A stretch of 63,358 nucleotides of DNA from Acidobacteriota bacterium (GCA_003697015.1 RFGL01000065.1:1-63358); one strand, 5' to 3'. Shown: positions 1,494-38,583, counted from the stretch's first letter. The notes: generated by a model from the letters alone, not told the origin. Program-made: numbers and translations.

Positions 1494-1496
1494 GGC

Positions 1497-2084
1497 TTAC
1501 GCCCCCCCGCCGATCAGGCTGTGGATGAGGTCGGCGAGGGTCGAATACGACACCGGCCCCGAGCTCGGCATGCCGGCGGCGCTCATGCCGTCGAAGAGGC
1601 CGGCGTTGCCGATGGCGTTGACCGCGGTCTCCTCCCCCGGCTTGCCGCTGATGGTGAAGCAGCCCTGTCCCAGGCCCATGGTGGCGGTGAGGCCGACCGG
1701 ACCGGCGGGGGCGACCAGCAGCAGGTAGTCGCCGCCGATCTCGAGGGTCGGCAGACCGGGGATCGGATGCTGGCCGCTCTGGTGCTGCTTGAGAGTGCCG
1801 ACGACGGTGAAGCGGGCGACGGTCACGCCCTTGACGGTCTCGAAGTCGCCCGCGAAGGCTTCCTTGACCTCGGCGACGTAGGTCACCGCCGGCAGGGTGC
1901 CGCCGCCGACCTCGATCGTCGTCTCGTACATGTCGACGATGGTGCCGCGGAAGATCTGGTGCGCCCCGGCACACATGGTCTCCAGATTCATCTGGAGCAC
2001 GCTGGTAGCCCCGGCGCCGGCAGCGCACAAGAGCGCCACGGCGAGCAACGAAACCAGGACTTTTCGAAAGACAAAGGTACCCAT
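1497..2084 (-). CDS. Secreted ~195-aa protein of unknown function, conserved partner of the metalloprotease
   Basis: 195-aa ORF with signal peptide MGTFVFRKVLVSLLAVALLCAAGAGA. About 60% identical by hand alignment to the 5102..5686 product (shared VLQMNLE, QIFRGT, VVGTLKQH, APAGPVGLTATMGLGQGCFT, GKPGEETAVN, SGPVSY). GAGGAG lies 8 nt upstream of the ATG, and the TAA stop lies 3 nt before the protease ATG. Confidence 0.8.
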   Translation of the reverse strand: MGTFVFRKVLVSLLAVALLCAAGAGATSVLQMNLETMCAGAHQIFRGTIVDMYETTIEVGGGTLPAVTYVAEVKEAFAGDFETVKGVTVARFTVVGTLKQHQSGQHPIPGLPTLEIGGDYLLLVAPAGPVGLTATMGLGQGCFTISGKPGEETAVNAIGNAGLFDGMSAAGMPSSGPVSYSTLADLIHSLIGGGA

Positions 2085-2273
2085 GTTCCAAGCTCCTCAT
2101 GAAGAGGTTGCAAACGGAGGCAGGCTCCGGCATGACCGATCCGCAGAAGGATCGGCCGCCGCGCCTGCGACGAAGATCAGGCAATCAGAGGAAGAAATCC
2201 CCGACGAAAGCTCAAGCAGACCAAGAGCGAGCTCACGCCTCGAGCCGGCCTTTACGATCCTGACTTGGCCGCG

Positions 2274-2475: not shown

Positions 2476-5100
2476 TCAGTCGAATTCCACCGTCAGGAAA
2501 TCGAGGTCGAAGGGATCGGCGAGACCGGTGAACTGCTCGTAGGTCACGCCGGTGGCGGAAAACGGCCCGCCGCTCGACAGGTCGCTCTCCCCCGGATCGG
2601 ACGCACCGCCGCCGGGGGAAACGCCGGCGATGCCGTCGTTGGCGGTGACGCTGCCGTAGGCCACGTCGATGCTGCCGTCGGCGCAGGTCAGGGTGACGGT
2701 GAAGTTGTTGGCACCGGTGGAGAAGAACTCCGGCACGTCGACGAAGGCGACGCTGAACGAGCCGCTGGCGCGGCTGGCGATGACCTGGCCGCCGTTGTTG
2801 GGCGACAGATCGTCCCACAGGGCGGCGATGCGCGGCTGGTCGTTGAGCAGCTCGCTGACCGACTCGCTGAAGTCGGCGTCGCCGCTGCCGAAGGTCAGGT
2901 TGCCGTTCGAGTTGACGAACACCGAGGTGTAATTCGTCCCCTGGAACGGGAAGGTGCAGCCGAGATCCACCTCCTCGAAGTCGTCGTCGCCGAGGTCGAG
3001 GAGGATGCCGTCGATCAGCATCACGTCGAGCACGTAGCGGCCGCTGCTGCCGCCGTCGCCGTCGAAGTCGAAGTCCGGGAAGGTGGAGACGGCGATGAAG
3101 TAGGTGCCGTCGGCCGGGATCTCGAAGAGGAGGAAGGAGAGCAGGCCGGTGCCGCCGTCGTCGTCGATCGCCAGCAGATTGCCGGCGGCGTCGAAGACGC
3201 CGATCAGGGAGTCGAGACAGCCGTTGGTGATCTCGACCTTCAGGGTCTGGCCCGCCGCGGCGTCGACCGCGAAGTAGTCGACGTCGCCCCCCTGGGGCGA
3301 GATGGTGGTCAGCACCGAGGCGCTGTTGAAGGGGGTCGGGATCGGCGTCGCGCTGCCGGGGGAGTCGTTGGGCTCGAACGGATCGACGAAGGGTTTGTCG
3401 AGGTTGACCCACTGGATGCTGGCGCCGGCGACGTCGTTCTCGCCGAAAGCGAAGAGCTCGTAGGCCGCCGTCAGGCCGTTCATGTTGTGGCTGGTCAGAT
3501 TGGGCTGGGTGCGGACGTCGATCTCCGGCTCGCTGCCCGAAGCCACCTCACAGCCACAGGTGACGCCGACCAGACCGTCCGGCGCCGAGACGGCGCCGTA
3601 GTCGACGATCACGTGATCGGACGCACGGGTGAGGGTGACGTCGAAGCTGTTGGCGCCGGTGTTGAAGAACTCCGGCACGTCCTCGAAGCTGACGGTGAAG
3701 GCGTTCTTGCTCGCGGCGAAGGACACCCGGCCGCCGTTGTTGGGCGACAGGTCGTCCCACAGAGCGGCGATGCGCGGCGGGCCGCCGAGGAACTCGCCGG
3801 CCGACTCGGTGAAGTCGGCGTCGCCCTCGCCGAAGGTCAGGCTGCCGTTCGAATTGACGAAGACCGAATTGAAGGTCAGACCGCAGATGGTGAAGGGAAA
3901 GGGCAGCGGCACCTCGATGAAATCGTCGTCGCCCAGGGGCAGGTCCCCCGGCGCGAGGCCGTTCATGAAGATGTCGGCGGTCGAGGTCTGACCGGCGGCG
4001 ACCGTGATCTTGACGAAGGCGGCGGGGTCGTCGACCGTCGGATCGGTCGACTCGCCGGCGCCGTTCCAGAACTCCTCCGGGCTCGGCGCAAGGGTGGTCG
4101 GCGGGGTCGAGAAGCCGCCCTGAAGGATCTGGTCGGTGTGGATGGTGTACTCGCCGGGCGGCACGTTGATGGTGAAGACCCCGGGCACCCCGCGGTCGCC
4201 GGAGATCGACGAGGCGGCGTCGACGAAGGGCGAGCTCATCTCCCGCGCGATGACGTTGACGCCGGTGCGCGGCGTGACGCCGTCGGGACCGAAGACGGTA
4301 CCGGTGATGGTGCCGAGGGTGGTCGCCGCCGACGCCGCCGGATAGAGGTCGGAGAGGATGTTGACCTCGTCGGCGTGGAGCGTCGCTTCGCCGCCGCCGA
4401 TGATGGCGAAGGGATACATGGTCTCGACCTGATCGGCAGGCGCGTTGCCGAAGGTGTTGTTGGGGCTCGGCCCGGAGGCATCGCCGAGGGCGATGTTCTG
4501 GCCGTTGGTGACGGTGTGGGCGAGGCCGGTGTAGTGGCCGATCTCATGCACCACGACGCCGAAGAAGTCGGCCTCCGGGAAGCCGCCGACCACCGAGCCG
4601 CCGTTCAGGAAACACACCGCCTCGATCGGCACGCCGTTGGCGTCGCGGGTATCCGGGCTGGCGAAGCCGAGGACGCCGCTGACGCCGAAGAGGGCGAGGA
4701 AGATCGAACCGTCGGGATCGAAGACGATCGGGCTCAATCCGTCGGCGACGTTGGAGCCGAAGAAGAGGTTCTGGATGAAGGGGTTGAAGTTGGTGGCGTC
4801 GACGTCGAAGGGCATCGGGCCGCTGGTGGCGTAGGCGTTGGTCGCGGTGGCGACGCTCTCCCACTCGGCGAAGGCGGCGAGCAGCTGGGCTACGCCGTCG
4901 GCATTGCTGCGGTTGAGCGGCGCGCCGATGTAGTCCCCAAGGTCGATGTTGAAGGGGATGCCGACGCCGCCGTTGGGCCAGCGCTCCATGTTGTCGCTTT
5001 CGTTGGGGTTCAGGTTGAGCGGCCCGCCGGCGAAGGCGGGAACGGCGATCAGAAGGATCGCGGCCAGGGCGGAGACGAGGGTGGTGGCATGCTTCGTCAT
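2476..5100 (-). CDS. Secreted metzincin-type (M10-like) zinc metalloprotease with two NIDO-like modules flanking a PPC-like module
   Basis: 874-aa ORF with signal peptide MTKHATTLVSALAAILLIAVPAFA. Carries HEIGHYTGLAH (HExxHxxGxxH) and a Met-turn-like ETMYPF. There are two copies of a ~150-aa module (VFVNSNGxLTFGxGDADFxES...PRIAALWDDLSPNNGG). Between them lies EPNDSPGSA...GDVDYFAV...AIDDDGG, which resembles a bacterial pre-peptidase C-terminal domain. Confidence 0.85.
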   Translation of the reverse strand: MTKHATTLVSALAAILLIAVPAFAGGPLNLNPNESDNMERWPNGGVGIPFNIDLGDYIGAPLNRSNADGVAQLLAAFAEWESVATATNAYATSGPMPFDVDATNFNPFIQNLFFGSNVADGLSPIVFDPDGSIFLALFGVSGVLGFASPDTRDANGVPIEAVCFLNGGSVVGGFPEADFFGVVVHEIGHYTGLAHTVTNGQNIALGDASGPSPNNTFGNAPADQVETMYPFAIIGGGEATLHADEVNILSDLYPAASAATTLGTITGTVFGPDGVTPRTGVNVIAREMSSPFVDAASSISGDRGVPGVFTINVPPGEYTIHTDQILQGGFSTPPTTLAPSPEEFWNGAGESTDPTVDDPAAFVKITVAAGQTSTADIFMNGLAPGDLPLGDDDFIEVPLPFPFTICGLTFNSVFVNSNGSLTFGEGDADFTESAGEFLGGPPRIAALWDDLSPNNGGRVSFAASKNAFTVSFEDVPEFFNTGANSFDVTLTRASDHVIVDYGAVSAPDGLVGVTCGCEVASGSEPEIDVRTQPNLTSHNMNGLTAAYELFAFGENDVAGASIQWVNLDKPFVDPFEPNDSPGSATPIPTPFNSASVLTTISPQGGDVDYFAVDAAAGQTLKVEITNGCLDSLIGVFDAAGNLLAIDDDGGTGLLSFLLFEIPADGTYFIAVSTFPDFDFDGDGGSSGRYVLDVMLIDGILLDLGDDDFEEVDLGCTFPFQGTNYTSVFVNSNGNLTFGSGDADFSESVSELLNDQPRIAALWDDLSPNNGGQVIASRASGSFSVAFVDVPEFFSTGANNFTVTLTCADGSIDVAYGSVTANDGIAGVSPGGGASDPGESDLSSGGPFSATGVTYEQFTGLADPFDLDFLTVEFD

Positions 5101-13856: not shown

Positions 13857-13860
<4 letters not shown>

Positions 13861-15623
13861 GACTCCGCCTCCCCCGGCGCGGTGGCCGTCGCGGCACCCT
13901 CCAGGGGCAGGACGACGGTGATCGCCGAGCCGCGCCCGGGCTCGCTGTCGACCACGATCTCGCCGCCATGCTCGTCCACGATTCGATACACAATAGCCAT
14001 GCCTATACCCGTTCCATCATCAAAAAACGACTTGAATGGATGAAAGAGATTCGCCCGCTCCTCTTCGTTCATGCCGCTCCCGGTGTCCTGGACCCGGATA
14101 GCATACCTGTCTTCCCAGATCCGGCCCGCCACCGTCAGGGTACCGCCATCCGGCATCGCCTTCAGCGCATTGCGCACCAGATTCCAGAATACCTGGCTGA
14201 TCTGGTCCGGATCGGCGACGATCTCGACCGACGGCGGATCGAGATCGACCACCAGCCGGTGCTCCGGCTTGACCTCCGGGCTGTGCTCGAGCAGCTCCAC
14301 GTGCTCCGCCAGGGCCGCGGCGACGTCGAAGCGCTTCGGCCGGCGGGGGCGCGGGCGGGCGAATTCGAGGAAGCTCTTGACCGTGCGGTCCAGGCGCTGG
14401 CTCTCGCGGCGGATGATGTCGAGCAGCTTGCTCTGGGAGGGGCTGGCGGCGAGGGACGAAGCGAGCATCTGGGTCGAGCCCGAGATCGCCGCCAGGGGAT
14501 TCCCGACCTCATGCGCCAGACCGGCAGCCATCGCTCCCACCGCTGCCATGCGATCCTTCATCCGCACCTGATCCTGGAGCCGGCGCAGCTCGGTGAGGTC
14601 CTGGAAGATGACGATGAAGCCGCGTTCCGCCCCCCGGCCGTCGCGCAGGATGGCGAGAGAGTAGCCGACCGGCACCGTCTCGTCGCCGCGCCGGACGTCG
14701 TGCTCGAGCCGCAGATTGTGCACCCCGCTGCCCTTGGTGACCAGATGGTGCTCGCTGGTCTCGGCCCAGGCCTCGCGGCTGAAGAGGCCGGAGTCGGCGA
14801 TGTGCCGGCCGATCAGCTGCTGCCGGCTACGGCCGAGGATCTCCTCCGCCGCCAGGTTGACGCTGGTGACGATGCCGCCGACGTCGGTGGTGATCAAGCC
14901 GCTGGTGATCGACTGCACGACGTCGTGGTGGAGGGCCTGAAGGTGGGCGAGGTCGGCGTCGCGCTCGGCCAGCGCCCGCTCGGCGCGGGCGACGTCGCGC
15001 CCCAGGTAGGCGGTGAGGATGGCGATGGCGTAGAAGCCGATCAGATGGACCATCAGGTTGTAGACCAGCTGCACCGTCGACGGGAACGGCGTCGCCGGCT
15101 GGATGAAGGCGGGCAACGGGTAGTGGGCGGCGAGCAGCGGCAGGCTGTGCATGACGAAGGCGAGGCCGGCGACGATCAGCCCGGCCGAGCGCCGCAACAG
15201 CACCGAGGCGACGCTGATCACCACCAGATAGAGGATGGTGAAGCCGCCGGCCGGGCCGCCGAGGACGTTGATGAAGAGGTAGACCAGCACCAGGTCGCCG
15301 AGGAATTGGACGTAGGCCTGGGCGACGACGAAGCGCTGCGGCAGGAACTGCAACAGGGCGATGTAGACCAGGGTGAGGACCGAACCGCCGGCGAGCAGGA
15401 CGCGCGCCGGCCGGGCGAGCCAGGCGACCTCGTCGCCCGCCGTGCCGCTGGTGGCGAATTGGTAGGTGACCGCGACGGTGCAGATCACCAGCATGCGGAT
15501 GGCGATCAGCCAACGCAGCTGGTGGGCCAGCTCGGCGGGCTGGGCGTCCGCCGGCGCCGGCGGGACGATGCGCCGTTTGAAGGGCCGAAGACCCTCTTTG
15601 CTCGCCGCCGCCAACGCGATCAA
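13857..15623 (-). CDS. pilS: Membrane sensor histidine kinase (PilS-like by context)
   Basis: 588 aa with a multi-TM N-terminus and a PAS-like region. H-box AGLAHEVGNPLAAI and HATPase motifs DTGSGM, GTGIGMAIVYRIV. Start uncertain (TTG at 15623 overlapping the pilC stop). Confidence 0.75.
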
Positions 15624-16825
15624 TTGATCTGGGTGATGATCGAGTACATCGGCAAGTACATCGCCGTGACGATGGTGCCGATCACCACGCCCAGGAAGGT
15701 GATCATGAGCGGCTCGATCAGCTTCATCAGACCGGCGACCGCGGTGTCGACCTCGTCCTCGTAGAAGTCGGCGATCTTGGACAGCATCTGGTCGAGAGCA
15801 CCGGTCTGCTCGCCGACGCCGATCATCTGCACCACCATCGCCGGGAAGACCTTGGTCTCCGCCAGCGGGCCGCTGATCGTCTTGCCCTCCTCAACGCTCT
15901 TGCGCACCAGCATGATCGAGTCTTCGATGATCGCGTTGCCCGAGGTCTTGGCGGTGATCTCGAGCCCGTCGAGGATCGGCACGCCGCTGGAGGTCAGGGT
16001 GGCCAGGGTGCGGCAGAAGCGGGCGATGGCGATCTTGCGCAGCAGCATGCCGATCACCGGCATCTTGAGCAGCAGATTGTCGAGCACCCGCCGGCCCTGG
16101 TAGGTCTGGTGCCACTGGCGGATGGCCAAGACGCCGAGGATGACCAGCAGGATGATCCACGGCGCGTAGTCGGCGACGAATTCGCTGGCGCTCACCACCC
16201 AGCGGGTGAGGAAGGGCAGCTCGGCACCGAGGCCGGCGAAGAGCTGGGCGAAGACCGGGATCACCTTCCACAGGATGATGAAGACCACCCCGCAGGCGAT
16301 GACGATCACCGTCACCGGGTAGATCATCGCCGACTTGACCTGCGACTTGAGCTTGACCGCCTTCTCGATGTAGTTCGCCAAGCGCTGCAGGATGATGTCG
16401 AGGATGCCGCCCGCTTCGCCGGCGGCGATCATGTTGACGTAGAGGTTGTCGAAGGCCTTGGGATGCTTCTGCATCGCGTCGGCCAGGGACGAGCCGCTCT
16501 CGACGTCGGTGCGCACCGTGGTCAGGACGTCGCGGAAGGTTCGCTGCTCCTCCTGCTCGCCGAGGATCTCCAGGCACTGCACCAGCGGCAGGCCGGCGTC
16601 GAGCATGACCGAGAACTGGCGGGTGAAGATGGCGATCTTCTTCGACCCCACCTTGCCGCCGAACTTCGGCAGCAGGGGGATGCGCCGGTCCTTCTCGCGC
16701 AGGGAAGTGACCTGGATCTGCTGCCGCCGCAGGATGGCGGCCGCAGCGTCGCGGCTGTCCGCCGCCAGCACGCCGCCGCGCACCTCGCCGGCCCGGGTTC
16801 GGCCTTTCCAGACAAAGCTCGCCAC
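15620..16825 (-). CDS. pilC: Type IV pilus assembly platform protein PilC (T2SS F family)
   Basis: 401 aa. Begins MASFVWKGRTRAGEVRGGVLAADSRDAAAAILRRQQIQV, has two T2SSF repeats and three TM segments. GTG start with AGGAGG 6 nt upstream. Confidence 0.9.
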   Translation of the reverse strand: MASFVWKGRTRAGEVRGGVLAADSRDAAAAILRRQQIQVTSLREKDRRIPLLPKFGGKVGSKKIAIFTRQFSVMLDAGLPLVQCLEILGEQEEQRTFRDVLTTVRTDVESGSSLADAMQKHPKAFDNLYVNMIAAGEAGGILDIILQRLANYIEKAVKLKSQVKSAMIYPVTVIVIACGVVFIILWKVIPVFAQLFAGLGAELPFLTRWVVSASEFVADYAPWIILLVILGVLAIRQWHQTYQGRRVLDNLLLKMPVIGMLLRKIAIARFCRTLATLTSSGVPILDGLEITAKTSGNAIIEDSIMLVRKSVEEGKTISGPLAETKVFPAMVVQMIGVGEQTGALDQMLSKIADFYEDEVDTAVAGLMKLIEPLMITFLGVVIGTIVTAMYLPMYSIITQIN

Positions 16826-16848
16826 AGCTCACCTCCTGCTCGTCGGGT

Positions 16849-17973
16849 CTATCGTCGCCTGCCGGCCGCCACCGGCCGCTGTTGGACGTTGGGATTGAGG
16901 GCGGTTGGTCCGCGGTTGATCAGCTCCTGCAACTCGTCGGGATAGCTCGAGCGCGACATCGCCACCTGCAGGGTGATCAGGCGCTTGAAGTAGAGCGAGG
17001 CCAGGGCCTGGTTGAAGGTCTGCATGCCGTACTTGGCCTGGCCGGTCTGCATCATGCCGTAGATCTGATGCACCTTGTCTTCGCGGATCAGGTTGCGGAT
17101 CGCCGAGTTGGGGATCAGGATCTCCATCGCCATCGCCCGTCCCTGGCCCGACGCCCGGGGCAGCAGGGTCTGGCAGAGGATGCCCTCCAGCACCAGCGAC
17201 AGCTGGGCGCGCACCTGCGCTTGCTGGTGCGCCGGGAAGACGTCGATGATGCGGTTGATGGTCTGGGCGGCGGAGTTGGTGTGCAGGGTGGCGAAGGTCA
17301 GATGGCCGGTCTCGGCGATGCGCAGGGCCGACTCGACGGTCTCCAGATCGCGCATCTCGCCGATCAGCACCACGTCGGGGTCCTGGCGCAGGGCGGCGCG
17401 CAGGGCGGCGGCGAAGCTGTGGGTGTCGGCGTGCAGCTCGCGCTGGTTGACCAGGCAGCTCTTGTGACTGTGCAGGTACTCGACCGGATCCTCGATGGTG
17501 ATGATGTGCTCGTGGCGCTCGCGGTTGATCTTGTCGAGCATCGCCGCCAGGGTGGTCGACTTGCCCGAGCCGGTCGGGCCGGTGACCAGCACCAGACCAC
17601 GGGGCTTCTCGCAGATCTTCTCCACCACCGCCGGCAAACCGAGCTCGCGGAAGCTGCGGATCTCGTAGGGGATGGTGCGGAAGACCGCCGCCACCGCCCC
17701 GCGCTGGTGGAAGACGTTGGCGCGGAACCGGGCCAACCCCTTGATGCCGAAGGAGAAGTCGATCTCCAGATCCTCCTCCAGGCGGTGCTTCTGGATGTCG
17801 GTGAGGATCGAGTAGGCGATCTGCTTGGTCTCGGTGGCGTTCAGCGGCGGCAGATTGAGCGCCTTCAGCTTGCCGTCGACCCGCACCAAAGGCGGAGAAT
17901 TGGTGGTGATGTGGAGGTCAGAGCCGCCTTGCTCGACCATGCTCTTGAGCAGCGCGTTTAGGGTCGGTGGCAC
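16849..17973 (-). CDS. pilT: Type IV pilus retraction ATPase PilT
   Basis: 374 aa with Walker A GPTGSGKST, Asp/His boxes and the PilT signature AIRNLIREDK. GTG start. Confidence 0.9.
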   Translation of the reverse strand: MPPTLNALLKSMVEQGGSDLHITTNSPPLVRVDGKLKALNLPPLNATETKQIAYSILTDIQKHRLEEDLEIDFSFGIKGLARFRANVFHQRGAVAAVFRTIPYEIRSFRELGLPAVVEKICEKPRGLVLVTGPTGSGKSTTLAAMLDKINRERHEHIITIEDPVEYLHSHKSCLVNQRELHADTHSFAAALRAALRQDPDVVLIGEMRDLETVESALRIAETGHLTFATLHTNSAAQTINRIIDVFPAHQQAQVRAQLSLVLEGILCQTLLPRASGQGRAMAMEILIPNSAIRNLIREDKVHQIYGMMQTGQAKYGMQTFNQALASLYFKRLITLQVAMSRSSYPDELQELINRGPTALNPNVQQRPVAAGRRR

Positions 17974-32244: not shown

Positions 32245-33492
32245 ATGCCCCTCACCAAGCTCGAATCGCGCTACTTCCGCAGCCTCTACGAGGTCGATCT
32301 GGCCTTCAAGCCGATCACCGTCGTCATCGGTCCGAACGGCAGCGGCAAGTCCAACGTATTGAAGGCGTTGCGCTTCCTCTACGACGCCGTCGCCGGGGAC
32401 GTGAGCGACTGGCGGCGTTACGACGCCCTGATCGACGATCTACCCTGGTACGGCGTCGGCGACGAAGGCGAGCGCCCGGCCCGGATCGCCCTGACCATCG
32501 AGGTCGACGCCGCCGGATGTTCATTGTGTCCGCTGCGCTACGAGACGGACTTCACGGCGGCCGACTACTTCCGGGTTGGCCAGGAGTCACTCACGGCGGG
32601 CGCCGCCGAGGATCGCTCGATTCTCTTCCGCCGGGAAGGCGACGTGATCGAGCAATGGATCAACCGTCGCGGCAGAGCGCTCAAACGCGCCGCCAAGGCG
32701 ACGGCCCGATCGCCGCGCAACCTGACCCTGCGCGACGAGGGCCCCAGCCCGAGTTTCCCGGGACCTGAGGTCATCCATAGGGAAATCGCCGGCTGGCGTT
32801 TTTTCGAAGTCAATCCGCGGGCAGCGCGCCGGGCTTCCGCCGTCCCCGAGATTCCCGAGGAGATCCCTCCCCTGGCGGCGGATGCCTCCAACCTCAGCGC
32901 TTTCCTTTACGCGCTCTATCGCCTGTCGGCGGCGGACTACGACGCGGTGATCGACGCCACCAGCCGGGCGATCGAGTTGCCGCAGAAAATCCTGGTCGAG
33001 CACGACGCGAACCGCGCCGACGTCGACTCCCCCCTCTGGCGCGGCACCGACGCCCGCTACGCCTTTATCGAGACGCCCTTCGGCGAGAATCGGCCCGTGC
33101 CGCCCGACAGCATCTCCGACGGCACCATCCGCTACCTCGCCCACATGGCGCTGCTTCTCGGCGACCCCAGCGTCACCCTGGCCTGCCTCGAAGAGCCCGA
33201 CAGCGGCCTCCACCCGCGCCTCATGTACCACCTCGCCGACGCCATGCGCCTCGCCGTCGGCAGCGGCGATCCCGCCGTCGAGATCGACCTGCCGCGGGTC
33301 TTGATCACCACCCACAGCCCCGAGCTTCTCGACTGCTTCGACCTTGCCGAGGAGACCGACTACCTCCAGGTCTACGTCGCCGAGCGCGGCGAGCACGGCG
33401 AGACGATCTTGACCTCCGTCACCGCTGCCGAGTTCGCCCCCTGGCTCGAACGCTATCGCCTGGGGGAGGCGGTGCGGCGGCACTTCGTTTGA
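32245..33492 (+). CDS. ABC/SMC-like AAA ATPase (AAA_21/AAA_15-type, OLD/AbiL/PARIS-class ATPase)
   Basis: Track ORF 31633..33492 trimmed to ATG 32245. Walker A VVIGPNGSGKSNVLKAL, SISDGTIRYLAHMALLLG signature-like segment, Walker B TLACLEEPDSGLHP, H-loop LITTHSPELL. Confidence 0.8.
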   Translation: MPLTKLESRYFRSLYEVDLAFKPITVVIGPNGSGKSNVLKALRFLYDAVAGDVSDWRRYDALIDDLPWYGVGDEGERPARIALTIEVDAAGCSLCPLRYETDFTAADYFRVGQESLTAGAAEDRSILFRREGDVIEQWINRRGRALKRAAKATARSPRNLTLRDEGPSPSFPGPEVIHREIAGWRFFEVNPRAARRASAVPEIPEEIPPLAADASNLSAFLYALYRLSAADYDAVIDATSRAIELPQKILVEHDANRADVDSPLWRGTDARYAFIETPFGENRPVPPDSISDGTIRYLAHMALLLGDPSVTLACLEEPDSGLHPRLMYHLADAMRLAVGSGDPAVEIDLPRVLITTHSPELLDCFDLAEETDYLQVYVAERGEHGETILTSVTAAEFAPWLERYRLGEAVRRHFV

Positions 33493-34214
33493 CGACTTGG
33501 GGGGCGGGAGACGTGGCGCTTCATATCTTCGTCGAAGACCGCGAAACCCGCGCCTACGAGATCCTTGCCCGGCGGGCGCTTGAAGCCGCCGGTGCCGGCG
33601 ATAAGGTAGACCGTCTCCGGGCTTCGAAGATCGACCTGCGCGACCTCATCACCACCGACGGCCTGCGCGATCTCCTGAGCCGCGCCGTCAGGAGCGGTTA
33701 CGACTGCGTGATGTTCGTCATGGATCAAGAAGCGCGATCGAGCTCGCCCGAAAGGCCGCGCCTGCTGGCACGGTTCAAGAAGTCATTCACCGAATTGTGC
33801 TCCTATCAGGCGAAGCTGCCGGAGCGAGATCCCATGCGCCGCGCGAGGATCATCCGCGTCGTCTGCCGGCGCTGCCTGGAGGGTTGGCTCGCCTCTGACC
33901 CGCAAGCCGTCGTCGACGCGGTTCGCGGGGTGCGCGGTACGGACTATTCTCCGAGTTACAGACAAACGGAGCACCTCGAACCCAAGAAGGCCGGCGAGCA
34001 GATCGTCCGCTGGATCCGGGAAGTGGGGCACCGGCTCGGGCGCCGGGATCTGCAACGAACAACTCTGCGCAACGTCAAGTCGCGCAGCGCCGACATCGCC
34101 GAGCAACTCGATCCGCAGCGTGGTCGCTCCTACAACGCCAGCCTGGCCTATTTCTTCGACATGGTGCACTGCCAGAGGTCCGGTTGCGATCACCCCTTCC
34201 CGGAGCGAGGATAG
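33489..34214 (+). CDS. Toprim-like DUF4276/RloB-like protein (partner of the ABC-type ATPase)
   Basis: 241 aa from TTG 33489 (TTGA overlap with the upstream stop); the alternative start is GTG 33513. Acidic pattern LHIFVEDRETRAY ... CVMFVMDQEA ... RCLEGWLASDPQAV resembles the E ... DxD ... FE-W-L layout of DUF4276/RloB proteins. By-eye only. Confidence 0.55.
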   Translation: MTTWGAGDVALHIFVEDRETRAYEILARRALEAAGAGDKVDRLRASKIDLRDLITTDGLRDLLSRAVRSGYDCVMFVMDQEARSSSPERPRLLARFKKSFTELCSYQAKLPERDPMRRARIIRVVCRRCLEGWLASDPQAVVDAVRGVRGTDYSPSYRQTEHLEPKKAGEQIVRWIREVGHRLGRRDLQRTTLRNVKSRSADIAEQLDPQRGRSYNASLAYFFDMVHCQRSGCDHPFPERG

Positions 34215-34218
34215 GCGG

Positions 34219-35358
34219 ATGGCGAATCCCTTTGGCGAGATCGAGAAGGCCCTCGCCGTGCTGGGGCAGGAAGCCGAGGTGATCCCCGCCGTGGGTCCCG
34301 CCCGCCTCGATCTCGCTGCACCCGACGCTGAGGAGACCTACGACCGCATGACCAGCGGCGAAGCAGCCACGAAGGGCATCTGGGAAACGGAACCGGGTAA
34401 GGGCCTATACCGGCCTCTGCGTCCGATCCACCGCCGCCAGGGCAGCGCCCTACGCCACTTCGTCGCCGGTACCGCTCGGGTCTACTACCTGGGGACCGTG
34501 CTCGAGCGGGAACGCTCCTCGCCCATTCAGTTTGCGCAGATCGGTGCGGCGGCGATCCGCCGGCGAGACGACGGCACGGTGAGGCCGGCTTCAGCCGGCA
34601 TGCGCGTGGAGAATCTCTTGATCCTCAACGGCATTCTCTCCCCGCAACTTCTCGAGCGCTTCCAGCACGCCTTGCCCGCTGGAACGCGGCTGATCACCAC
34701 CTCCGCTCGCAGCGGCGGGTCGGCGGAGCCGCGGTCCCGCGGTGCGCACGCCGCCAACGAAGCGATGCGCGCTCTCCAGCAGAGCATCCTTGAGCAGCTG
34801 CAGGAGGATCCGCCCCCGGTCCTGGACGGCAGCCTGGGCAACGAATACTTCAATTGGACGTCCGGCAGCTTGCTGGCGGTGCTCAAGAGCTTTCGCCAGG
34901 AAAGCCGGTTCACGATCGGACGCGGTATTCGCCCGCGAGACCAGCCCACCCTCTTCCGCCTGCTCAACGATCTACCACCCGAGTCCCGAACCGTCGTCTT
35001 CCCGCGGATCACGGCCGAGCACCCGGACGGCAGCGTCGTCTTCTGGTACGTGCGCCTGCATGCGTTGTCCCCCGCCATGCGCACCTCTCCGCTGATGGGC
35101 GTGATCAAGGTCGAGATGCCCAATGCCGGCGCCCAGTGCGTTCCGACCGAGCTCGTAGACCGCTTGAGCGCACGCCTGCTTGCTGAACGTACCGTCGCCC
35201 CGTACGGCAGCGGAGCGCGCTGGCATGCGCATCTGTATCCTCTCTATCTTGCCGGCCGGCTGGTGCGCAACCGTTTCCATTCCGAGGAAGTGATCCGTTC
35301 CGGGCTGCGATGGCCTGCGACTGCCCCCGCCGCGAGTAAGGATGGTGCTCAGCGATGA
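34219..35358 (+). CDS. NurA-like (RNase H-fold) protein, partner of the HerA-like ATPase
   Basis: Track ORF 34120..35358 trimmed to ATG 34219 (GAGG 8 nt upstream, 4 nt after the previous stop). PPVLDGSLGNEYF matches the NurA llDGSL motif. Beta-rich segments VVFWYVRL, GVIKVEM and a C-terminal YPLYLAGRLVR. ATGA-coupled to the downstream HerA-like gene. Confidence 0.55.
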   Translation: MANPFGEIEKALAVLGQEAEVIPAVGPARLDLAAPDAEETYDRMTSGEAATKGIWETEPGKGLYRPLRPIHRRQGSALRHFVAGTARVYYLGTVLERERSSPIQFAQIGAAAIRRRDDGTVRPASAGMRVENLLILNGILSPQLLERFQHALPAGTRLITTSARSGGSAEPRSRGAHAANEAMRALQQSILEQLQEDPPPVLDGSLGNEYFNWTSGSLLAVLKSFRQESRFTIGRGIRPRDQPTLFRLLNDLPPESRTVVFPRITAEHPDGSVVFWYVRLHALSPAMRTSPLMGVIKVEMPNAGAQCVPTELVDRLSARLLAERTVAPYGSGARWHAHLYPLYLAGRLVRNRFHSEEVIRSGLRWPATAPAASKDGAQR

Positions 35359-37022
35359 CCAAGGAAGCCAAAGAGACCATCGGTCGCGCGTCGGCGACCG
35401 AGCAGCGCCCGAATACGGCAGACAGATTCCAATTCTGGATCAAGAAGGGCGGCCGCATCAACCCCTTCGACATTGTCAGCGCCGAGCATCACGGAGGAAG
35501 CGAGACCTTCGGGCTGGTCACGGCCATCCGCCATCTCACGGACTCCTCGAGTCACCTCGCCAACTACATCTCGAACGATTTCGGCGAGCGCCTGATCGAG
35601 GAGCCGCAGACTTTGCGGCAGGGGACCAACGTAGCAGAGGCCACGGTACTGGCCAACACCCACGACGTCTACATGCCCGTGCAGAACGAGGCGACCGTCT
35701 CGTTTGCCGACGAGGAGTCCATCCACCGGGCGCTGGGCATCGACGGCATACCCGAGGAGCGACGCGTCCCCGCTGGGGTGGTGGAGATGAGCAACGGCGC
35801 CGAGGCGGTAGCGTATCTCGATCGCCATTTCGTCCTCGGCCCGGAGGCCGGACACGTCAACATTTCGGGCATCTCCGGCCTCGCTACCAAGACCTCCTAC
35901 GCCATGTTCCTCATCCAGTCGCTTCTGCAAAGAACCGAGAATGAGGAAGTTCCCGCGACGATCCTGCTGAACGTCAAGTACGACGATTTGCTGAGCCTGC
36001 ACGAACCGGCCGAGCTGAGCGACGAGGAGAAAGAAAAATGGCGACGGATGGGTCTCGAGCCGAAGCCATGGCCGCGCGACCGGGTGCACTACCTCCTGCC
36101 GAACGGTCCCCGGGGCAATCCCAATTCGTACGTCACCCTCGCCGACCTCCCCCAAGCGCAGATCTATGGCTACGAGCTCAACCATTGTGCAAGCAAGCTC
36201 GATCTTCTCTTGTCCGACATTCCGGATGCCGGCGGTACGCTCGAATCGGTCATCGGCGAGGTAGAAAGCGGACTCACCTCTAACGACAGGCTCTGGCAGT
36301 CGGTCGAGACCTGGGCAGATCTGCTCAACGGACCGCCGCTGGTCCAGCAGGGGATGCCGCAGAAGCTGCGCAGCATCCACGCCAGCAGCGTCGGCCGGTT
36401 CTTGCGCCTCATGCGCTCGATGGTCAGGACGCGCCAGTCCGGCATCTTCGTCGACCGCCTGTCGAACAAGATGACGACGATCGCCGAGACCTTGGCGGAC
36501 CTGCAGGCAGGACACACCTACGTCATCGACGTGGCCCGGCTCAAGGCCGCGGAGCAGACCCTGGTCTTCGGCGACGTGCTGCGGACGGTCTACGAGCTGT
36601 GTTCGGGCGAGTTCGAGTCGGAGATCGACGACTCGGAGCCGCCGAAGAAAGTGATCATCTTCGTCGACGAGCTGAACAAGTACGCACCCGCCCGGCAGGA
36701 CCAGGCCGCGTCGCCGATCCTGACGCAAGTTCTCGACATCGCGGAACGCGGCCGTTCATTCGGCATCATCCTCTTCTCCGCCCAGCAATTCCTGAGCGCC
36801 GTACACCAGCGGGTGACGGGCAACGCGGCGACCAAGATCCTCGGCCGCAGCGACAGCGCAGAAATCAGTCAGCCCAGCTATCGATCCCTAGAGCAGGACG
36901 TCAAGAGCTATCTGACGCGGCTCGACAAGGGCGAGCTCATCCTCTCCCACCCGATCTATCGCCAACCGATCAAGATCCGCTTCCCCCGATTGCCCTACCG
37001 GCAGGGAAGAGAGCACGGCTGA
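35355..37022 (+). CDS. HerA-like FtsK/HerA-superfamily ATPase (HAS-barrel + ATPase, COG0433-like)
   Basis: 555 aa with an N-terminal barrel-like segment (RFQFWIKKGGRINPFDIVSAEHHGGSETFGLVTAI). P-loop region HVNISGISGLATKTSYAMFL, Walker B KKVIIFVDELNKYAP, arginine-finger region AERGRSFGIILFSAQQ...ATKILGRSDSAE. Confidence 0.7.
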   Translation: MTKEAKETIGRASATEQRPNTADRFQFWIKKGGRINPFDIVSAEHHGGSETFGLVTAIRHLTDSSSHLANYISNDFGERLIEEPQTLRQGTNVAEATVLANTHDVYMPVQNEATVSFADEESIHRALGIDGIPEERRVPAGVVEMSNGAEAVAYLDRHFVLGPEAGHVNISGISGLATKTSYAMFLIQSLLQRTENEEVPATILLNVKYDDLLSLHEPAELSDEEKEKWRRMGLEPKPWPRDRVHYLLPNGPRGNPNSYVTLADLPQAQIYGYELNHCASKLDLLLSDIPDAGGTLESVIGEVESGLTSNDRLWQSVETWADLLNGPPLVQQGMPQKLRSIHASSVGRFLRLMRSMVRTRQSGIFVDRLSNKMTTIAETLADLQAGHTYVIDVARLKAAEQTLVFGDVLRTVYELCSGEFESEIDDSEPPKKVIIFVDELNKYAPARQDQAASPILTQVLDIAERGRSFGIILFSAQQFLSAVHQRVTGNAATKILGRSDSAEISQPSYRSLEQDVKSYLTRLDKGELILSHPIYRQPIKIRFPRLPYRQGREHG

Positions 37023-37031
37023 CGGCGGCGG

Positions 37032-38285
37032 ATGAGCGACGCCTGCCCACCTCTCCCCCCACGGTTCGAGTACCGGCTCGATCTCGCCGGCCACGTAACG
37101 CCGAAGCTGCTGAAGAACGAGCCCATCCACCGCTGGTTCTATTTCCAACACAGCTTCTCGCCCCAGCTCGTCGACCTGCTCTTCGATCGTTGGCAGGTGA
37201 CGCGAGGATCGGTCGTCGTCGATCCATTCGTCGGCGCGGGGACGACCCTCGTCTGTGCCAAACAGCGTGGCGTCGAGTCCGTCGGCGTCGACGTCTCTCC
37301 CCTCGCCGTTCTCGCCAGCAACGCCAAGATCGCGACGTACGACGTCACGTCCCTGGTCGATGCGCTCTCAACGGTGGCGCGGTTCGTTCGATCGAATGGG
37401 ACCGTCGATCTGTCGAGACCGCAACGTCTGCAAAGAGCCTTCACCGACGCCGAATTCGACGTCCTCTTTCGTCTGCGCCGGGCCATCTTGCGCCAAAAAA
37501 TGCCTGAACGCGACCTTCTGCTCCTGGCGCTGCTCAGGACCCAGCGGGAGATTTCGCGGGCCGTGCCCGACGGCGGCTGGTTTCGCTGGCGCGAGCGACG
37601 TTCGTCCGAGACGACGATCTGGCCGCGATTCAAGCGTTGGGTCGAGCAGTGGCTGAGAGACCTTTCGGCTCGGCCTCCGGCGGCCGTTCATTGCCGAGCA
37701 TGCACGGGTGATGCGCGGCGACTCGGAGACGTGCTGGCGGGTGCTTCAGGGCGTCGGCAACGCTGCCGTGCGATCGTCACCTCTCCGCCCTACCCGAACC
37801 GCCATGACTACAGCCGGATCTTCCAGATCGAGCTCTTGACCCTCGGGGTGACGGAGGGGGAGATCCGTCACTTGCGACAGACGTCATTGCGCTCGCACGT
37901 CGAAGCGAGGCCACCGGCCCGCTCGCCCCAACCCCGCGCGCACGCGGCGCCCTGGGCCGATCTGCTCGCGAGCATCCCGGTGGACGGGGTCGACTCGAGG
38001 GTGAAGTCGATGCTCGAAGGCTACTTCGAAGACATGCATGCGGTGCTGAGGTCGTGCTGGGACGCGTTGACGCCCGGTGGCAAGATGGCCCTCGTGGTCG
38101 GCAACGTCCGTCATGGCGGCGTGATGATTCCCGTCGACGAGCTCCTGACCTCCCTCGCTCAGAATCTCGGCTTTTCCTTTGAAGCGGGATGGGTCGCCAG
38201 GTTGCGCGGCAACAGCGCGCAGCAGATGGGCCGCTTCGGTCGCCGACCAGCACGGGAAAGCGTCTTGCTCTTCGAGAAGGTTTGA
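37032..38285 (+). CDS. DNA methyltransferase (N6-adenine/N4-cytosine type; motif I before motif IV; SPPY)
   Basis: 417 aa. Motif X/I-like IHRWFYFQHSFSPQLVDLL...VVVDPFVGAGTTLVCAKQRGVESVGVDV at residues ~31-88. Catalytic motif IV AIVTSPPYPNRHDY at ~247-260. Confidence 0.75.
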   Translation: MSDACPPLPPRFEYRLDLAGHVTPKLLKNEPIHRWFYFQHSFSPQLVDLLFDRWQVTRGSVVVDPFVGAGTTLVCAKQRGVESVGVDVSPLAVLASNAKIATYDVTSLVDALSTVARFVRSNGTVDLSRPQRLQRAFTDAEFDVLFRLRRAILRQKMPERDLLLLALLRTQREISRAVPDGGWFRWRERRSSETTIWPRFKRWVEQWLRDLSARPPAAVHCRACTGDARRLGDVLAGASGRRQRCRAIVTSPPYPNRHDYSRIFQIELLTLGVTEGEIRHLRQTSLRSHVEARPPARSPQPRAHAAPWADLLASIPVDGVDSRVKSMLEGYFEDMHAVLRSCWDALTPGGKMALVVGNVRHGGVMIPVDELLTSLAQNLGFSFEAGWVARLRGNSAQQMGRFGRRPARESVLLFEKV

Positions 38286-38376: not shown

Positions 38377-38583
38377 TCACAGCAGACGGACGTCGGCCCA
38401 GGCGGTGCAGATGCGGAGGGTGTCGTCGCCGCCGCGGGCGGCGAGGGCGGAGGCGGAGAAGCGCTGGATCTCGTCGCGGGTGGCGCCGGAGCGGCGCAGG
38501 GCCTGGCGCACCTCGCTCACCCACACCAGGGGGTTGCGGCTGTGGAAGCTCAGGCGGATGTCCGGATAGCGCGGCTCGCTCAC
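38377..38583 (-). CDS. Small (68-aa) hypothetical protein
   Basis: GTG-initiated ORF. Nearly every codon ends in G/C, like the host backbone. The composition is non-repetitive and protein-like (MSEPRYPDIRLSFHSRNPLVWVSEVRQALRRSGATRDEIQRFSASALAARGGDDTLRICTAWADVRLL). Function unknown. Confidence 0.5.
   Translation of the reverse strand: MSEPRYPDIRLSFHSRNPLVWVSEVRQALRRSGATRDEIQRFSASALAARGGDDTLRICTAWADVRLL

What the first reader, a model, noticed from the sequence alone, without database searches (positions are those of the whole stretch)
32245..38285. Five-gene operon coupling an ABC-ATPase/Toprim-like pair, a NurA-HerA-like pair and a DNA methyltransferase: candidate undescribed defence-type system
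Seen: five co-directional genes are packed with TTGA overlap (or 20-nt gap), 4-nt gap, ATGA overlap and 9-nt gap, so they are almost certainly one transcript. By-eye domain calls are: (A) ABC/SMC-like ATPase (GPNGSGKSN, LACLEEPDSGLHP, TTHSPELL); (B) small acidic-motif protein resembling Toprim-like DUF4276/RloB; (C) NurA-like protein (VLDGSLG); (D) HerA-like HAS-barrel ATPase (IIFVDELNKY, ERGRSFGIILFSAQQ); (E) amino-methyltransferase (DPFVGAGTT, SPPY). Established: HerA-NurA is a helicase-nuclease DNA end-resection machine. HerA is the motor in the SIR2-HerA and DUF4297-HerA anti-phage systems. ABC-ATPase plus Toprim partner pairs underlie OLD/AbiL/PARIS-type defence. A dedicated methyltransferase in an operon with nucleases is the hallmark of restriction-modification-like self/non-self discrimination. 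Inference: this looks like a modification-linked system in which NurA-HerA, possibly with the ATPase/Toprim-like pair, replaces a classical restriction endonuclease. I do not recall a described system with this gene combination. An alternative is two adjacent independent systems (A+B and C+D+E).
Basis: partly seen in the sequence, partly recalled or inferred. Interest (0 to 1): 0.9.

Follow-up and report, generated by a model that had tools for sequence, protein, structure and literature searches.

The report
TdtA-type NurA–HerA–methylase operon, variant form
The five genes are real and form one tight operon, but three of them match a Thermus operon already studied for DNA donation between cells; what is new here is that an ATPase/Toprim-like pair sits where the restriction enzyme normally is, and the NurA nuclease appears to have lost its active site.

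Summary
Five co-directional genes at 32245-38285 form a low-GC island. Every by-eye domain call is supported, two of them only at family level: A is an AAA_21 ABC ATPase, B a divergent DUF4276 (Toprim-like), C has a NurA fold, D is a HerA homolog, and E is an alpha-class SPPY amino-methyltransferase.

The claim that the system is undescribed does not hold. C-D-E corresponds to the T. thermophilus ICETh1 tdtA operon (Tth111II type IIG enzyme, NurA-like, TdtA, pfam01555 methylase), which is needed for DNA donation in transjugation. Across 36 species-level loci with enough flanking sequence, NurA-HerA sits beside a methylase-bearing gene in 33, and that gene is usually the type IIG enzyme.

A+B is a separable module. 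It occurs alone in other Acidobacteria-like contigs, and it sits upstream of C-D in at least 6 sequence-divergent loci.

One result was unexpected. The window's NurA lacks two acidic residues that all 69 species-level orthologs keep (D83A, D332G). Every other eroded NurA whose neighbours are known is also A+B-linked.

My best reading is a methylation-linked DNA break-processing machine in which A+B replaces the type IIG enzyme. Whether the outcome is defence or DNA export is unresolved. This is a new variant of a known kind and of moderate interest.

The parts
32245..33492 (+). Gene A: ABC/SMC-type ATPase of the AAA_21/AAA_15 family (415 aa), relative of PADLOC HEC-01A, AriA and MAD3
   Evidence: Pfam AAA_21 1e-31 and AAA_15 3e-15. 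PADLOC HEC-01A 5e-34 and AriA 2e-32. NCBIfam MAD3 scores 63 bits against a 420-bit cut-off. The best PDB hit is an OLD-family endonuclease, over the P-loop region only.
33513..34214 (+). Gene B: divergent DUF4276 (Toprim-superfamily-like) protein, 233 aa, with invariant E8/D9 after strand 1 and D71-x-E73 after strand 3
   Evidence: 21 of 22 family members match PF14103, best 4e-7; the window copy scores 0.094. 11 of 22 weakly match one PADLOC HEC-01B model, and the best hit to any HEC-01B model is 3.5e-4. The AF2 model has pLDDT 92 and an alpha/beta fold with four strands, but there is no significant PDB fold match. DUF4276 is placed in the Toprim superfamily and equated with Mad4 in PMC12065111. 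Conserved residues are from the alignment.
34219..35358 (+). Gene C: NurA-fold protein (379 aa), counterpart of TTC1878. Its active site is eroded (D83A, D332G, and other invariant positions changed)
   Evidence: Family-level Pfam NurA match in 17 of 34 members. Family profile against PDB gives 7f6d NurA at 0.004. Foldseek gives 7f6d_G at 2e-11 and 1zup at 3e-8. Residue loss against 69 of 69 orthologs and 117 of 120 homologs.
35355..37022 (+). Gene D: HerA/FtsK-family hexameric ATPase (555 aa), TdtA-type, with Walker A K179/T180 and Walker B D438/E439 intact
   Evidence: Family profile against PDB gives D. radiodurans HerA at 3e-47, in stretches 24-239 and 389-553. Invariant columns are listed. 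It is 63% identical to the Chloracidobacterium protein and 57% to the D of the T. scotoductus DSM 8553 cluster; the tdtA paper names C. thermophilum and that T. scotoductus strain as carrying tdtA-like clusters.
37032..38285 (+). Gene E: alpha-class amino-methyltransferase (417 aa), counterpart of TTC1880. Motif I DPFVGAGTT lies at residues 64-72 and motif IV SPPY at 251-254, so it is probably an N4-cytosine methylase
   Evidence: Pfam N6_N4_Mtase 1.7e-9. PADLOC MTase_II PDLC03224 4e-60. Both motifs are invariant in 30 of 30 orthologs. Motif order and the SPPY interpretation follow PMC6712171.

Best explanation
The locus is a horizontally acquired composite of two modules.

- Module 2 (C-D-E) is a TdtA-type unit: a NurA-fold protein, a HerA/FtsK-family hexameric dsDNA motor, and an alpha-class SPPY DNA methyltransferase. 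It corresponds to the ICETh1 tdtA ('DNA secretion system') operon of Thermus thermophilus.
- Module 1 (A-B) is an ABC ATPase plus a DUF4276 Toprim-like protein, a distant relative of the PADLOC candidate HEC-01 and of Mad3/Mad4. It sits where most relatives carry an MmeI/Tth111II-family type IIG restriction-modification enzyme.

Proposed mechanism (inferred): a break-making enzyme creates DNA ends or nicks. In most relatives this is the type IIG enzyme; here it is presumably the Toprim-like B under control of ATPase A. The HerA-type ring, capped by the NurA-fold dimer, loads there and translocates or unwinds the DNA. E methylates host DNA so that the host's own genome is spared.

In this copy NurA has lost two universally conserved acidic residues. 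It probably acts only as the HerA-activating, strand-splitting cap, and any nuclease chemistry comes from B. I favour degradation of unmodified incoming DNA (restriction-like defence) as the outcome. DNA export as in Thermus is the one experimentally shown alternative.
For: Shown:
- Domain identities are established.
- The gene order matches the published TTC1877-1880 operon. The paper names T. scotoductus DSM 8553 (the strain of L039) and Chloracidobacterium thermophilum as carrying tdtA-like clusters.
- C-D are adjacent in essentially all 80 species-level loci. A methylase-bearing partner is present in 33 of 36 loci with adequate flanks: 31 have the type IIG enzyme, 16 have E, and only 2 have E without the type IIG enzyme.
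- A+B lies immediately upstream of C in the same order in the window, L005, L006/L015, L011, L094 and L096. A and B identities between these loci are only 40-64%.
- In L011 the order is type IIG, A, B, C, D, E. In L003, L008, L010 and L012 a different ATPase-containing module sits between the type IIG gene and C. That position therefore accepts accessory modules.
- NurA active-site erosion occurs only in A+B-linked operons, where the context is known: the window, L094 and L096. P0166 has the same substitutions as L094's C but its context was not looked up. P0199 is probably A+B-linked, on contig-length evidence only. All 69 species-level orthologs and 116 of the 120 best homologs keep all three conserved aspartates. 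This argues that A+B and C-D are functionally coupled.
- The D. radiodurans NurA D53A mutant loses nuclease activity, yet the complex keeps normal ATPase activity. A catalytically dead NurA can therefore still serve the motor (PMC9960219).
- A, B, D and E keep their catalytic motifs.
Against: - No experiment exists for this variant.
- The only functional data for the family concern DNA donation, not defence. In Thermus, deleting the methylase has only minor effects on transfer.
- A+B also exists as a stand-alone pair, so the adjacency could be island-type clustering.
- B has no significant structural match in the PDB, and the window copy is below Pfam threshold. Its nuclease role rests on family assignment and on literature.
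- The equivalence of family residue D83 with drNurA D53 is inferred from strand position and from Pfam profile coordinates. It is not from a residue-level alignment; the attempt to obtain one failed.
- Three of the six A+B-linked loci whose C was examined directly keep an intact NurA.
- No defence genes, integrase, tRNA or att repeats lie nearby.
Confidence: 0.5

Rival explanations
1. DNA donation or secretion machinery, as in Thermus transjugation. Breaks are made in the donor genome, and the TdtA-type motor, with NurA, pushes DNA out of the cell for uptake by a competent neighbour. The methylase is accessory.
For: This is the only experimentally supported role for the family. [quoted passage not shown] In L008/L009 the cluster lies next to an integrase, ParA and an FtsK/SpoIIIE gene, which is a mobile-element context. 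The window also carries type IV pilus genes at about 13.9-18 kb, though these are not adjacent.
Against: The window locus has no integrase, tRNA or flanking direct repeats. It lacks the type IIG enzyme proposed to define the transfer origins. The near-universal pairing with methylases and the patchy, HGT-like spread across many phyla are typical of restriction-like systems. Transjugation has been described only in Thermus.
Confidence: 0.2
2. Two independent systems that merely sit side by side: an autonomous HEC-01-like ABC-ATPase/DUF4276 pair, and a separate NurA-HerA-methylase unit.
For: The closest B homologs (52-58% identity) occur with an A-type ATPase and no C-D-E nearby, in four contigs. 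Most C-D loci lack A+B. A strongly matches PADLOC HEC-01A, and B-family members weakly match HEC-01B.
Against: The order is the same and the spacing tight (a 4-nt gap from B to C here) in at least 6 sequence-divergent loci. NurA active-site erosion is confined to A+B-linked operons, which independence would not predict.
Confidence: 0.2
3. A decaying remnant. A tdtA-type operon lost its type IIG gene and is losing NurA function, leaving no coherent activity.
For: The type IIG gene is absent. NurA carries D83A and D332G, and several other near-invariant positions are changed. C diverges faster than expected: 45% identity where other pairs at the same D identity show 57 +/- 8%.
Against: All five ORFs are full length. 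A, B, D and E keep their catalytic motifs. Three loci (window, L094, L096) retain full-length eroded NurA genes with different substitution patterns, which points to retention in a non-catalytic role.
Confidence: 0.07
4. A housekeeping HerA-NurA double-strand-break end-resection complex.
For: D and C are homologous to D. radiodurans HerA and NurA.
Against: The locus is a low-GC island. D is 60-69% identical across different phyla. The pair is linked to methylases and restriction enzymes rather than to Mre11/Rad50. The probable NurA catalytic Asp is missing. In Thermus the housekeeping HepA-NurA pair is a separate locus from tdtA.
Confidence: 0.03

Closest known systems
ICETh1 tdtA / 'DNA secretion system' operon of Thermus thermophilus HB27 (TTC1877 Tth111II/TthHB27I, TTC1878 NurA-like, TTC1879 TdtA, TTC1880 methylase; Blesa et al. 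2017, PMC5365140)
   Same: The order is the same: a NurA-like gene of about 377 aa, then a HerA/FtsK-family ATPase, then a pfam01555 methylase of about 410 aa, with overlapping or few-nt junctions. Window D is 57% identical to the D of the T. scotoductus DSM 8553 cluster and 63% to a Chloracidobacterium protein; the paper names that T. scotoductus strain and C. thermophilum as carrying tdtA-like clusters.
   Different: There is no type IIG enzyme; an AAA_21/DUF4276 pair occupies its place. The locus is not on a recognisable ICE. The NurA active-site residues are eroded. The host is an Acidobacteria MAG. I did not have the HB27 sequences themselves, so the relationship to TdtA is established through clusters named in the paper.
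Deinococcus radiodurans HerA-NurA end-resection complex (PDB 7f6d; PMC9960219)
   Same: It is the best solved-structure relative of both C (Foldseek 2e-11) and D (profile 3e-47). It gives the model of a hexameric dsDNA translocase capped by a NurA dimer.
   Different: That pair has a housekeeping repair role and is not described as methylase-linked. Its NurA is catalytically active, and D53 is essential for nuclease activity.
ABC-ATPase + Toprim-like pairs: PADLOC candidate HEC-01, MADS Mad3/Mad4, PARIS AriA/AriB
   Same: A is an AAA_21/AAA_15 ATPase (HEC-01A 5e-34, AriA 2e-32, mad3 2e-15). B belongs to DUF4276, which PMC12065111 places in the Toprim superfamily and equates with Mad4. In MADS the pair is likewise embedded in a methylation-based system.
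   Different: B does not match AriB (DUF4435) or any mad4 model. The MAD3 score is far below its cut-off (63 against 420 bits). MAD6-8, which are mandatory for MADS, are absent. HEC-01 is a candidate system; I know of no published mechanism for it (not checked here).
SIR2-HerA / DUF4297-HerA (Gao_Her) and the predicted 'HerA/FtsK capture systems' (PMC10853773)
   Same: A HerA-family motor is paired with an effector in a mobile, conflict-type context.
   Different: The effectors differ: there is no SIR2 or DUF4297 here. D matches the PADLOC HerA models only weakly (4e-10 and 0.0024), so it belongs to a different HerA clade.

Membership tests
TdtA-type (ICETh1 tdtA operon) NurA-HerA-methylase system | HerA/FtsK-family ATPase with a HAS barrel and Walker A/B motifs, related to TdtA | tested here: met
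   Family profile hits DrHerA at 3e-47, with Walker residues invariant. D is 57-63% identical to the D genes of the T. scotoductus DSM 8553 cluster and a Chloracidobacterium cluster; the paper names that strain and C. thermophilum as tdtA-like. The HB27 TdtA sequence itself was not available.
TdtA-type (ICETh1 tdtA operon) NurA-HerA-methylase system | NurA-like gene immediately upstream of the ATPase gene, overlapping or nearly so | tested here: met
   ATGA overlap between C and D. NurA fold. C-D adjacency across the 80 species-level loci, with very few exceptions.
TdtA-type (ICETh1 tdtA operon) NurA-HerA-methylase system | pfam01555 N4/N6 methylase immediately downstream | tested here: met
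   E starts 9 nt after D. PF01555 at 1.7e-9. SPPY and FxGxG motifs are invariant.
TdtA-type (ICETh1 tdtA operon) NurA-HerA-methylase system | MmeI/Tth111II-family type IIG restriction-modification enzyme in the operon | tested here: not met
   No such gene lies within +/-10 kb. It is present in 31 of 36 related loci. Here A+B occupies that position.
TdtA-type (ICETh1 tdtA operon) NurA-HerA-methylase system | Carried on an ICE with an integrase and att direct repeats at a tRNA gene | tested here: not met
   No tRNA in the window. No integrase within +/-10 kb. No convincing flanking direct repeats. Only the GC dip marks an island.
TdtA-type (ICETh1 tdtA operon) NurA-HerA-methylase system | Required for DNA donation (transjugation) | not testable with these tools
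   Needs mating assays.
HerA-NurA DNA end-resection complex | Catalytically competent NurA (motif I Asp, equivalent to drNurA D53) | tested here: not met
   The window has Ala where 69 of 69 orthologs have Asp, and Gly at a second invariant Asp. The equivalence to D53 is inferred.
HerA-NurA DNA end-resection complex | Linkage with Mre11/Rad50 (SbcCD), or conserved housekeeping synteny | tested here: not met
   Neighbours are LysE, ArsA-like ATPases and a TetR/RND operon. The locus is a low-GC island.
MADS (methylation-associated defence system) | MAD6, MAD7 and MAD8 present (mandatory in the authors' model) | tested here: not met
   Only a partial match of D's C-terminal region to mad8 (4e-10). 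No mad6 or mad7 hits. MAD3 scores 63 bits against a 420-bit cut-off.
PARIS / OLD-like ABC-ATPase + Toprim pairs; PADLOC HEC-01 | AAA_15/21 ABC ATPase | tested here: met
   AAA_21 1e-31, HEC-01A 5e-34, AriA 2e-32.
PARIS / OLD-like ABC-ATPase + Toprim pairs; PADLOC HEC-01 | Partner Toprim-type nuclease (AriB/DUF4435, or HEC-01B/DUF4276) | tested here: inconclusive
   No AriB hit. For DUF4276, 21 of 22 family members match but the window copy scores only 0.094. HEC-01B is hit weakly, by 11 of 22 members for one model. Foldseek gives no significant PDB hit. The acidic motifs E8 and D71-x-E73 are conserved.
Type II restriction-modification system | DNA methyltransferase with intact catalytic motifs | tested here: met
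   DPFVGAGTT and SPPY are present and invariant in orthologs. PADLOC MTase_II 4e-60.
Type II restriction-modification system | Cognate site-specific restriction endonuclease | tested here: not met
   None of A-D matches a REase model. Relatives carry a type IIG enzyme that is absent here.
SIR2-HerA / DUF4297-HerA (Gao_Her) | SIR2 or DUF4297 effector next to HerA | tested here: not met
   No such domain occurs in the cluster.

The most novel reading that the evidence does not exclude
TdtA-type NurA-HerA modules form a widespread, so far unrecognised methylation-coupled DNA-targeting immune family. It spans many bacterial phyla and has no NurA model in PADLOC. In it the enzyme that makes the initiating break is interchangeable: a type IIG restriction enzyme in most members, and an ABC-ATPase/DUF4276 Toprim pair in this variant. 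In the ABC/Toprim variants NurA has repeatedly become a catalytically dead adaptor for the HerA motor. On this reading the Thermus 'transjugation' phenotype would be a by-product of a restriction-like machine.
Probability: 0.3. Interest if true: 0.75.

Novelty: new variant of a known kind. Interest (0 to 1): 0.5.

Why it matters
The NurA-HerA-methylase core has been studied in only one organism, and only as a DNA-donation device. This survey shows the same core in many phyla, almost always beside a methylase or a type IIG restriction enzyme, which is the signature of self/non-self discrimination. If it is a defence system, it would be a restriction system with a dedicated ring translocase, and it would change how Thermus transjugation is interpreted.

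The variant in this window adds a natural experiment. The restriction enzyme is replaced by an ABC-ATPase/Toprim-like pair and the NurA active site is gone. That suggests which parts are interchangeable and which are structural. It also gives direct mutational tests: restore A83D in C, or inactivate E8/D71 in B.

Tried and rejected
- **MADS.** Rejected. Only weak P-loop or methylase-level matches, no MAD6 or MAD7, and MAD3 far below cut-off.
- **BREX-related capture systems, DndFGH HerA capture systems and MANTIS/Gao_RL.** Read and rejected, because their component sets differ: PglZ/BrxC/DUF4007, DndFGH, and MtsABCD respectively.
- **SIR2-HerA / DUF4297-HerA.** No such effector is present.
- **Fold search for B.** Foldseek against the PDB gave no significant match despite a pLDDT 92 model. 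The profile search against PDB sequences gave only chance hits.
- **Residue-level alignment of NurA motif I.** I tried aligning the N-terminal half of the C family to solved NurA sequences. No NurA was recovered, so the D83 to D53 equivalence remains inferred.
- **Plasmid records.** A tblastn search with D found only distant relatives, at most 43% identity over partial matches and 23-28% over full length. I found no evidence of plasmid carriage.
- **Island boundaries and signals.** No tRNA, no att-like direct repeats, no sigma-70-type promoter match, and no + strand terminator inside the operon.
- **Literature.** Searches combining NurA, HerA, methyltransferase, type IIG, MmeI and anti-phage terms found no paper naming this gene set as a defence system. 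The library does not cover most subscription journals.
- **Not done.** Phage collections and metagenome contig scans were not run. DefenseFinder itself was not available.

Full report
**1. The observation**

The five + strand ORFs are present at the stated coordinates.
- A: 32245-33492.
- B: 33513-34214. The GTG start is supported by the homolog alignment and by existing gene calls.
- C: 34219-35358, 4 nt after B.
- D: 35355-37022, with an ATGA overlap with C.
- E: 37032-38285, 9 nt after D.

No terminator-like site on the + strand lies inside the cluster, and no sigma-70 consensus promoter was found. The cluster has the lowest GC of any 6-kb stretch in the window: 0.654 against 0.708 +/- 0.017 elsewhere. 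Its GC3 is also lower than in the flanking genes. It is therefore a small, horizontally acquired island. It sits between a LysE transporter gene and a TetR/RND efflux operon. No integrase or other recognisable defence gene lies within 10 kb, the whole window has no tRNA, and the 9.5 kb around the cluster shows no att-like repeats. The window comes from an Acidobacteria MAG contig.

**2. What the proteins are**

- **A** is an ABC/SMC-type ATPase: AAA_21 at 1e-31, PADLOC HEC-01A at 5e-34 and AriA at 2e-32. Its NCBIfam MAD3 score is 63 bits against a 420-bit cut-off.
- **B** has no hit on its own. In its family, 21 of 22 members match DUF4276 (best 4e-7; window copy 0.094), and 11 of 22 weakly match one PADLOC HEC-01B model.
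  - The family is small, with 23 proteins found.
  - It keeps an invariant E8/D9 after strand 1 and D71-x-E73 after strand 3.
  - DUF4276 is placed in the Toprim superfamily and equated with Mad4 of MADS in PMC12065111.
  - A confident AF2 model (pLDDT 92) has no significant PDB neighbour, so the nuclease assignment rests on family membership.
- **C** has the NurA fold. 17 of 34 family members match Pfam NurA, and the family profile's best PDB hit is D. radiodurans NurA. The AF2 model (pLDDT 79, pTM 0.82) matches D. radiodurans NurA at 2e-11 and Thermotoga TM1739 NurA at 3e-8. No PADLOC model matches any of the 34 scanned members of this family.
- **D** is a HerA. Its family profile matches D. 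radiodurans HerA at 3e-47 over the N-terminal region with Walker A and over the C-terminal ATPase region. The Walker A Lys/Thr and Walker B Asp/Glu are invariant.
- **E** is an amino-methyltransferase. An N-terminal DPFxGxGTT motif and a C-terminal SPPY motif are separated by about 180 residues, and both are invariant in 30 orthologs. This order and the SPPY motif are what PMC6712171 describes for an alpha-class N4-cytosine methylase.

**3. Related loci**

D belongs to a large family: more than 7,600 hits, and 327 clusters at 50% identity with E <= 1e-30. Members are 60-69% identical across Chloroflexota, Acidobacteriota and Gammaproteobacteria, which implies horizontal spread.

I fetched 80 species-level genome loci plus several metagenome loci. 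I scored their ORFs against the window proteins and against the extra genes seen in L008. Results:
- C and D are adjacent in essentially all loci.
- Among the 36 loci with at least 5.5 kb upstream and 4.5 kb downstream, 33 carry a methylase-bearing partner.
- 31 of these carry a roughly 1,100-aa MmeI-family type IIG restriction-modification enzyme (PADLOC REase_MTase_IIG, about 1,500 bits). It lies either upstream of C or downstream of D.
- 16 carry E, and only 2 carry E without the type IIG enzyme.
- NurA sequences fall into E-linked and E-less subfamilies.
- The slot between the type IIG gene and C is variable. It is empty in some loci, occupied by A+B in L011, and occupied by a three-gene module with a BrxD-like ATPase in L003, L008, L010 and L012.

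**4. The known counterpart**

Blesa et al. 2017 (PMC5365140) describe a four-gene operon on ICETh1 of T. thermophilus HB27.
- TTC1877 is Tth111II, a type IIG enzyme of 1,106 aa.
- TTC1878 is NurA-like, 377 aa.
- TTC1879 is TdtA, a hexameric HerA/FtsK-family ATPase.
- TTC1880 is a pfam01555 methylase of 410 aa.
- The junctions are 4, 2 and -4 bp.

They name T. scotoductus DSM 8553 and Chloracidobacterium thermophilum as carrying tdtA-like clusters. My locus L039 comes from that T. scotoductus strain, and L001 is from a related Chloracidobacterium. [quoted passage not shown] The methylase has only a minor effect.

C-D-E is therefore a member of this described operon type, not an undescribed combination. 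I did not have the HB27 sequences, so the link runs through the loci named in the paper. In the searchable library I found no paper that treats this gene set as an anti-phage system.

**5. Are A+B and C-D-E one system or two?**

Evidence that A+B is separable:
- The closest B homologs (52-58% identity) sit with an A-type ATPase and no C-D-E nearby, in four Acidobacteria-like contigs.
- Most C-D loci lack A+B.

Evidence that the two are coupled:
- A+B lies directly upstream of C, in the same order, in the window, L005, L006/L015, L011, L094 and L096. A and B identities between these loci are only 40-64%.
- The window's NurA has Ala in the family's 'F-x-D-G-S' motif and Gly in its 'G-x-D-x-R-W-H' motif. 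All 69 species-level orthologs keep Asp at both positions.
- Of the 120 best homologs, only four have lost any of three conserved aspartates: the window copy, P0166 (which shows the same substitutions as L094's C), P0196 (the L096 copy) and P0199.
- Where the context is known (window, L094, L096), all are A+B-linked. P0199 shares its contig length with a B homolog, so it is probably A+B-linked too. P0166's context was not looked up.
- The substitution patterns differ between these loci, and the ORFs stay full length.
- The window's C is also more diverged than expected: 45% identity where other pairs at the same D identity show 57 +/- 8%.
- In D. radiodurans, NurA D53A abolishes nuclease activity but leaves the ATPase of the complex unchanged.

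I infer that, in part of the A+B-linked lineage, NurA survives as a non-catalytic partner of the motor. This is easier to explain if A+B and C-D work together. The mapping of the family Asp to D53 is inferred from its position on the first strand of the RNase H-like core and from Pfam profile coordinates. A direct alignment attempt failed. Three A+B-linked loci keep an intact NurA.

**6. Mechanism**

Shown:
- the identities of the parts;
- the conserved NurA-HerA pairing;
- the near-universal methylase or restriction-enzyme linkage;
- the interchangeability of what sits upstream;
- the active-site erosion.

Inferred: a break-maker creates DNA ends. This is the type IIG enzyme in most relatives, and here the Toprim-like B controlled by ATPase A. 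The HerA ring, capped by NurA, loads on the ends and translocates or unwinds the DNA. E protects host DNA.

Open: the outcome. I weight restriction-like degradation of unmodified DNA above DNA export because of the methylase linkage and the HGT pattern. However, DNA export is the only experimentally shown role. I give the composite, functionally coupled reading 0.5, DNA donation 0.2, two independent neighbours 0.2, and decay or housekeeping repair the remainder.

**7. Comparison and verdict**

The locus is a new variant of a known kind: the tdtA-type operon.
- It meets three of that operon's defining features: a TdtA-type HerA, an upstream NurA-like gene and a downstream pfam01555 methylase.
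- It fails two: the type IIG enzyme and the ICE context.
- It is not MADS, PARIS, SIR2-HerA, a BREX-related capture system, DndFGH or MANTIS.

What remains interesting is the breadth of the family outside Thermus, its absence from PADLOC, the swap of the restriction enzyme for an ABC/Toprim-like pair, and the dead NurA. I score interest at 0.5.

Noticed in passing
window 34219-35358 (gene C); also L094 10710-11849 and L096 2210-3325: The NurA-like protein has lost universally conserved acidic residues. The window copy carries D83A and D332G. L094 carries D83R, D203G and D332G. L096 carries D83A and D203N. All remain full-length ORFs, and all three are in operons that carry the AAA_21/DUF4276 pair.
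   Followed up: yes
L003, L008/L009/L017, L010, L012 (for example L008 5843-8850): In some relatives a different three-gene module sits between the type IIG gene and nurA, the same slot that A+B occupies in L011. It comprises a 333-aa protein, a roughly 390-aa AAA_22/BrxD-like ATPase and a roughly 278-aa protein. Only the ATPase has any PADLOC hit, a weak one; none of the three has a precomputed Pfam hit stronger than weak or faint.
   Followed up: partly
L091, L092, L093, L095: Stand-alone A+B pairs lie in conserved synteny (PMT_2 glycosyltransferase, A, B, carbamoyltransferase, GDSL-like lipase) in four Acidobacteria-like contigs. That context does not look like a defence island.
   Followed up: partly
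L008/L009 12999-20363: Immediately downstream of the tdtA-type cluster lie an integrase, an RHH protein, ParA, an FtsK/SpoIIIE ATPase and a protein with a DnaA_N-like domain, so the cluster appears to ride on an integrative element there.
   Followed up: no
window 13857-17973 (- strand): Type IV pilus/secretion genes: a PilS-like sensor kinase (6TM_PilS, PAS, HisKA), a T2SSF (PilC-like) protein and a T2SSE (PilB/PilT-like) ATPase, in a region of slightly lower GC (0.66-0.67). This may matter only if the tdtA-type module turns out to be involved in DNA exchange.
   Followed up: partly
window 38377-38583 (- strand): A 68-aa ORF lies directly downstream of E on the opposite strand. JGI calls it as a gene, and it has no Pfam hit. 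Its function is unknown, and it may mark the island boundary.
   Followed up: partly
window 2476-5100 (- strand) and 21-2102 (+ strand): An 874-aa ORF with PPC (pre-peptidase C-terminal) and NIDO-like domains, and a 693-aa ORF with no Pfam hit, both in another lower-GC stretch (0.65-0.68).
   Followed up: no
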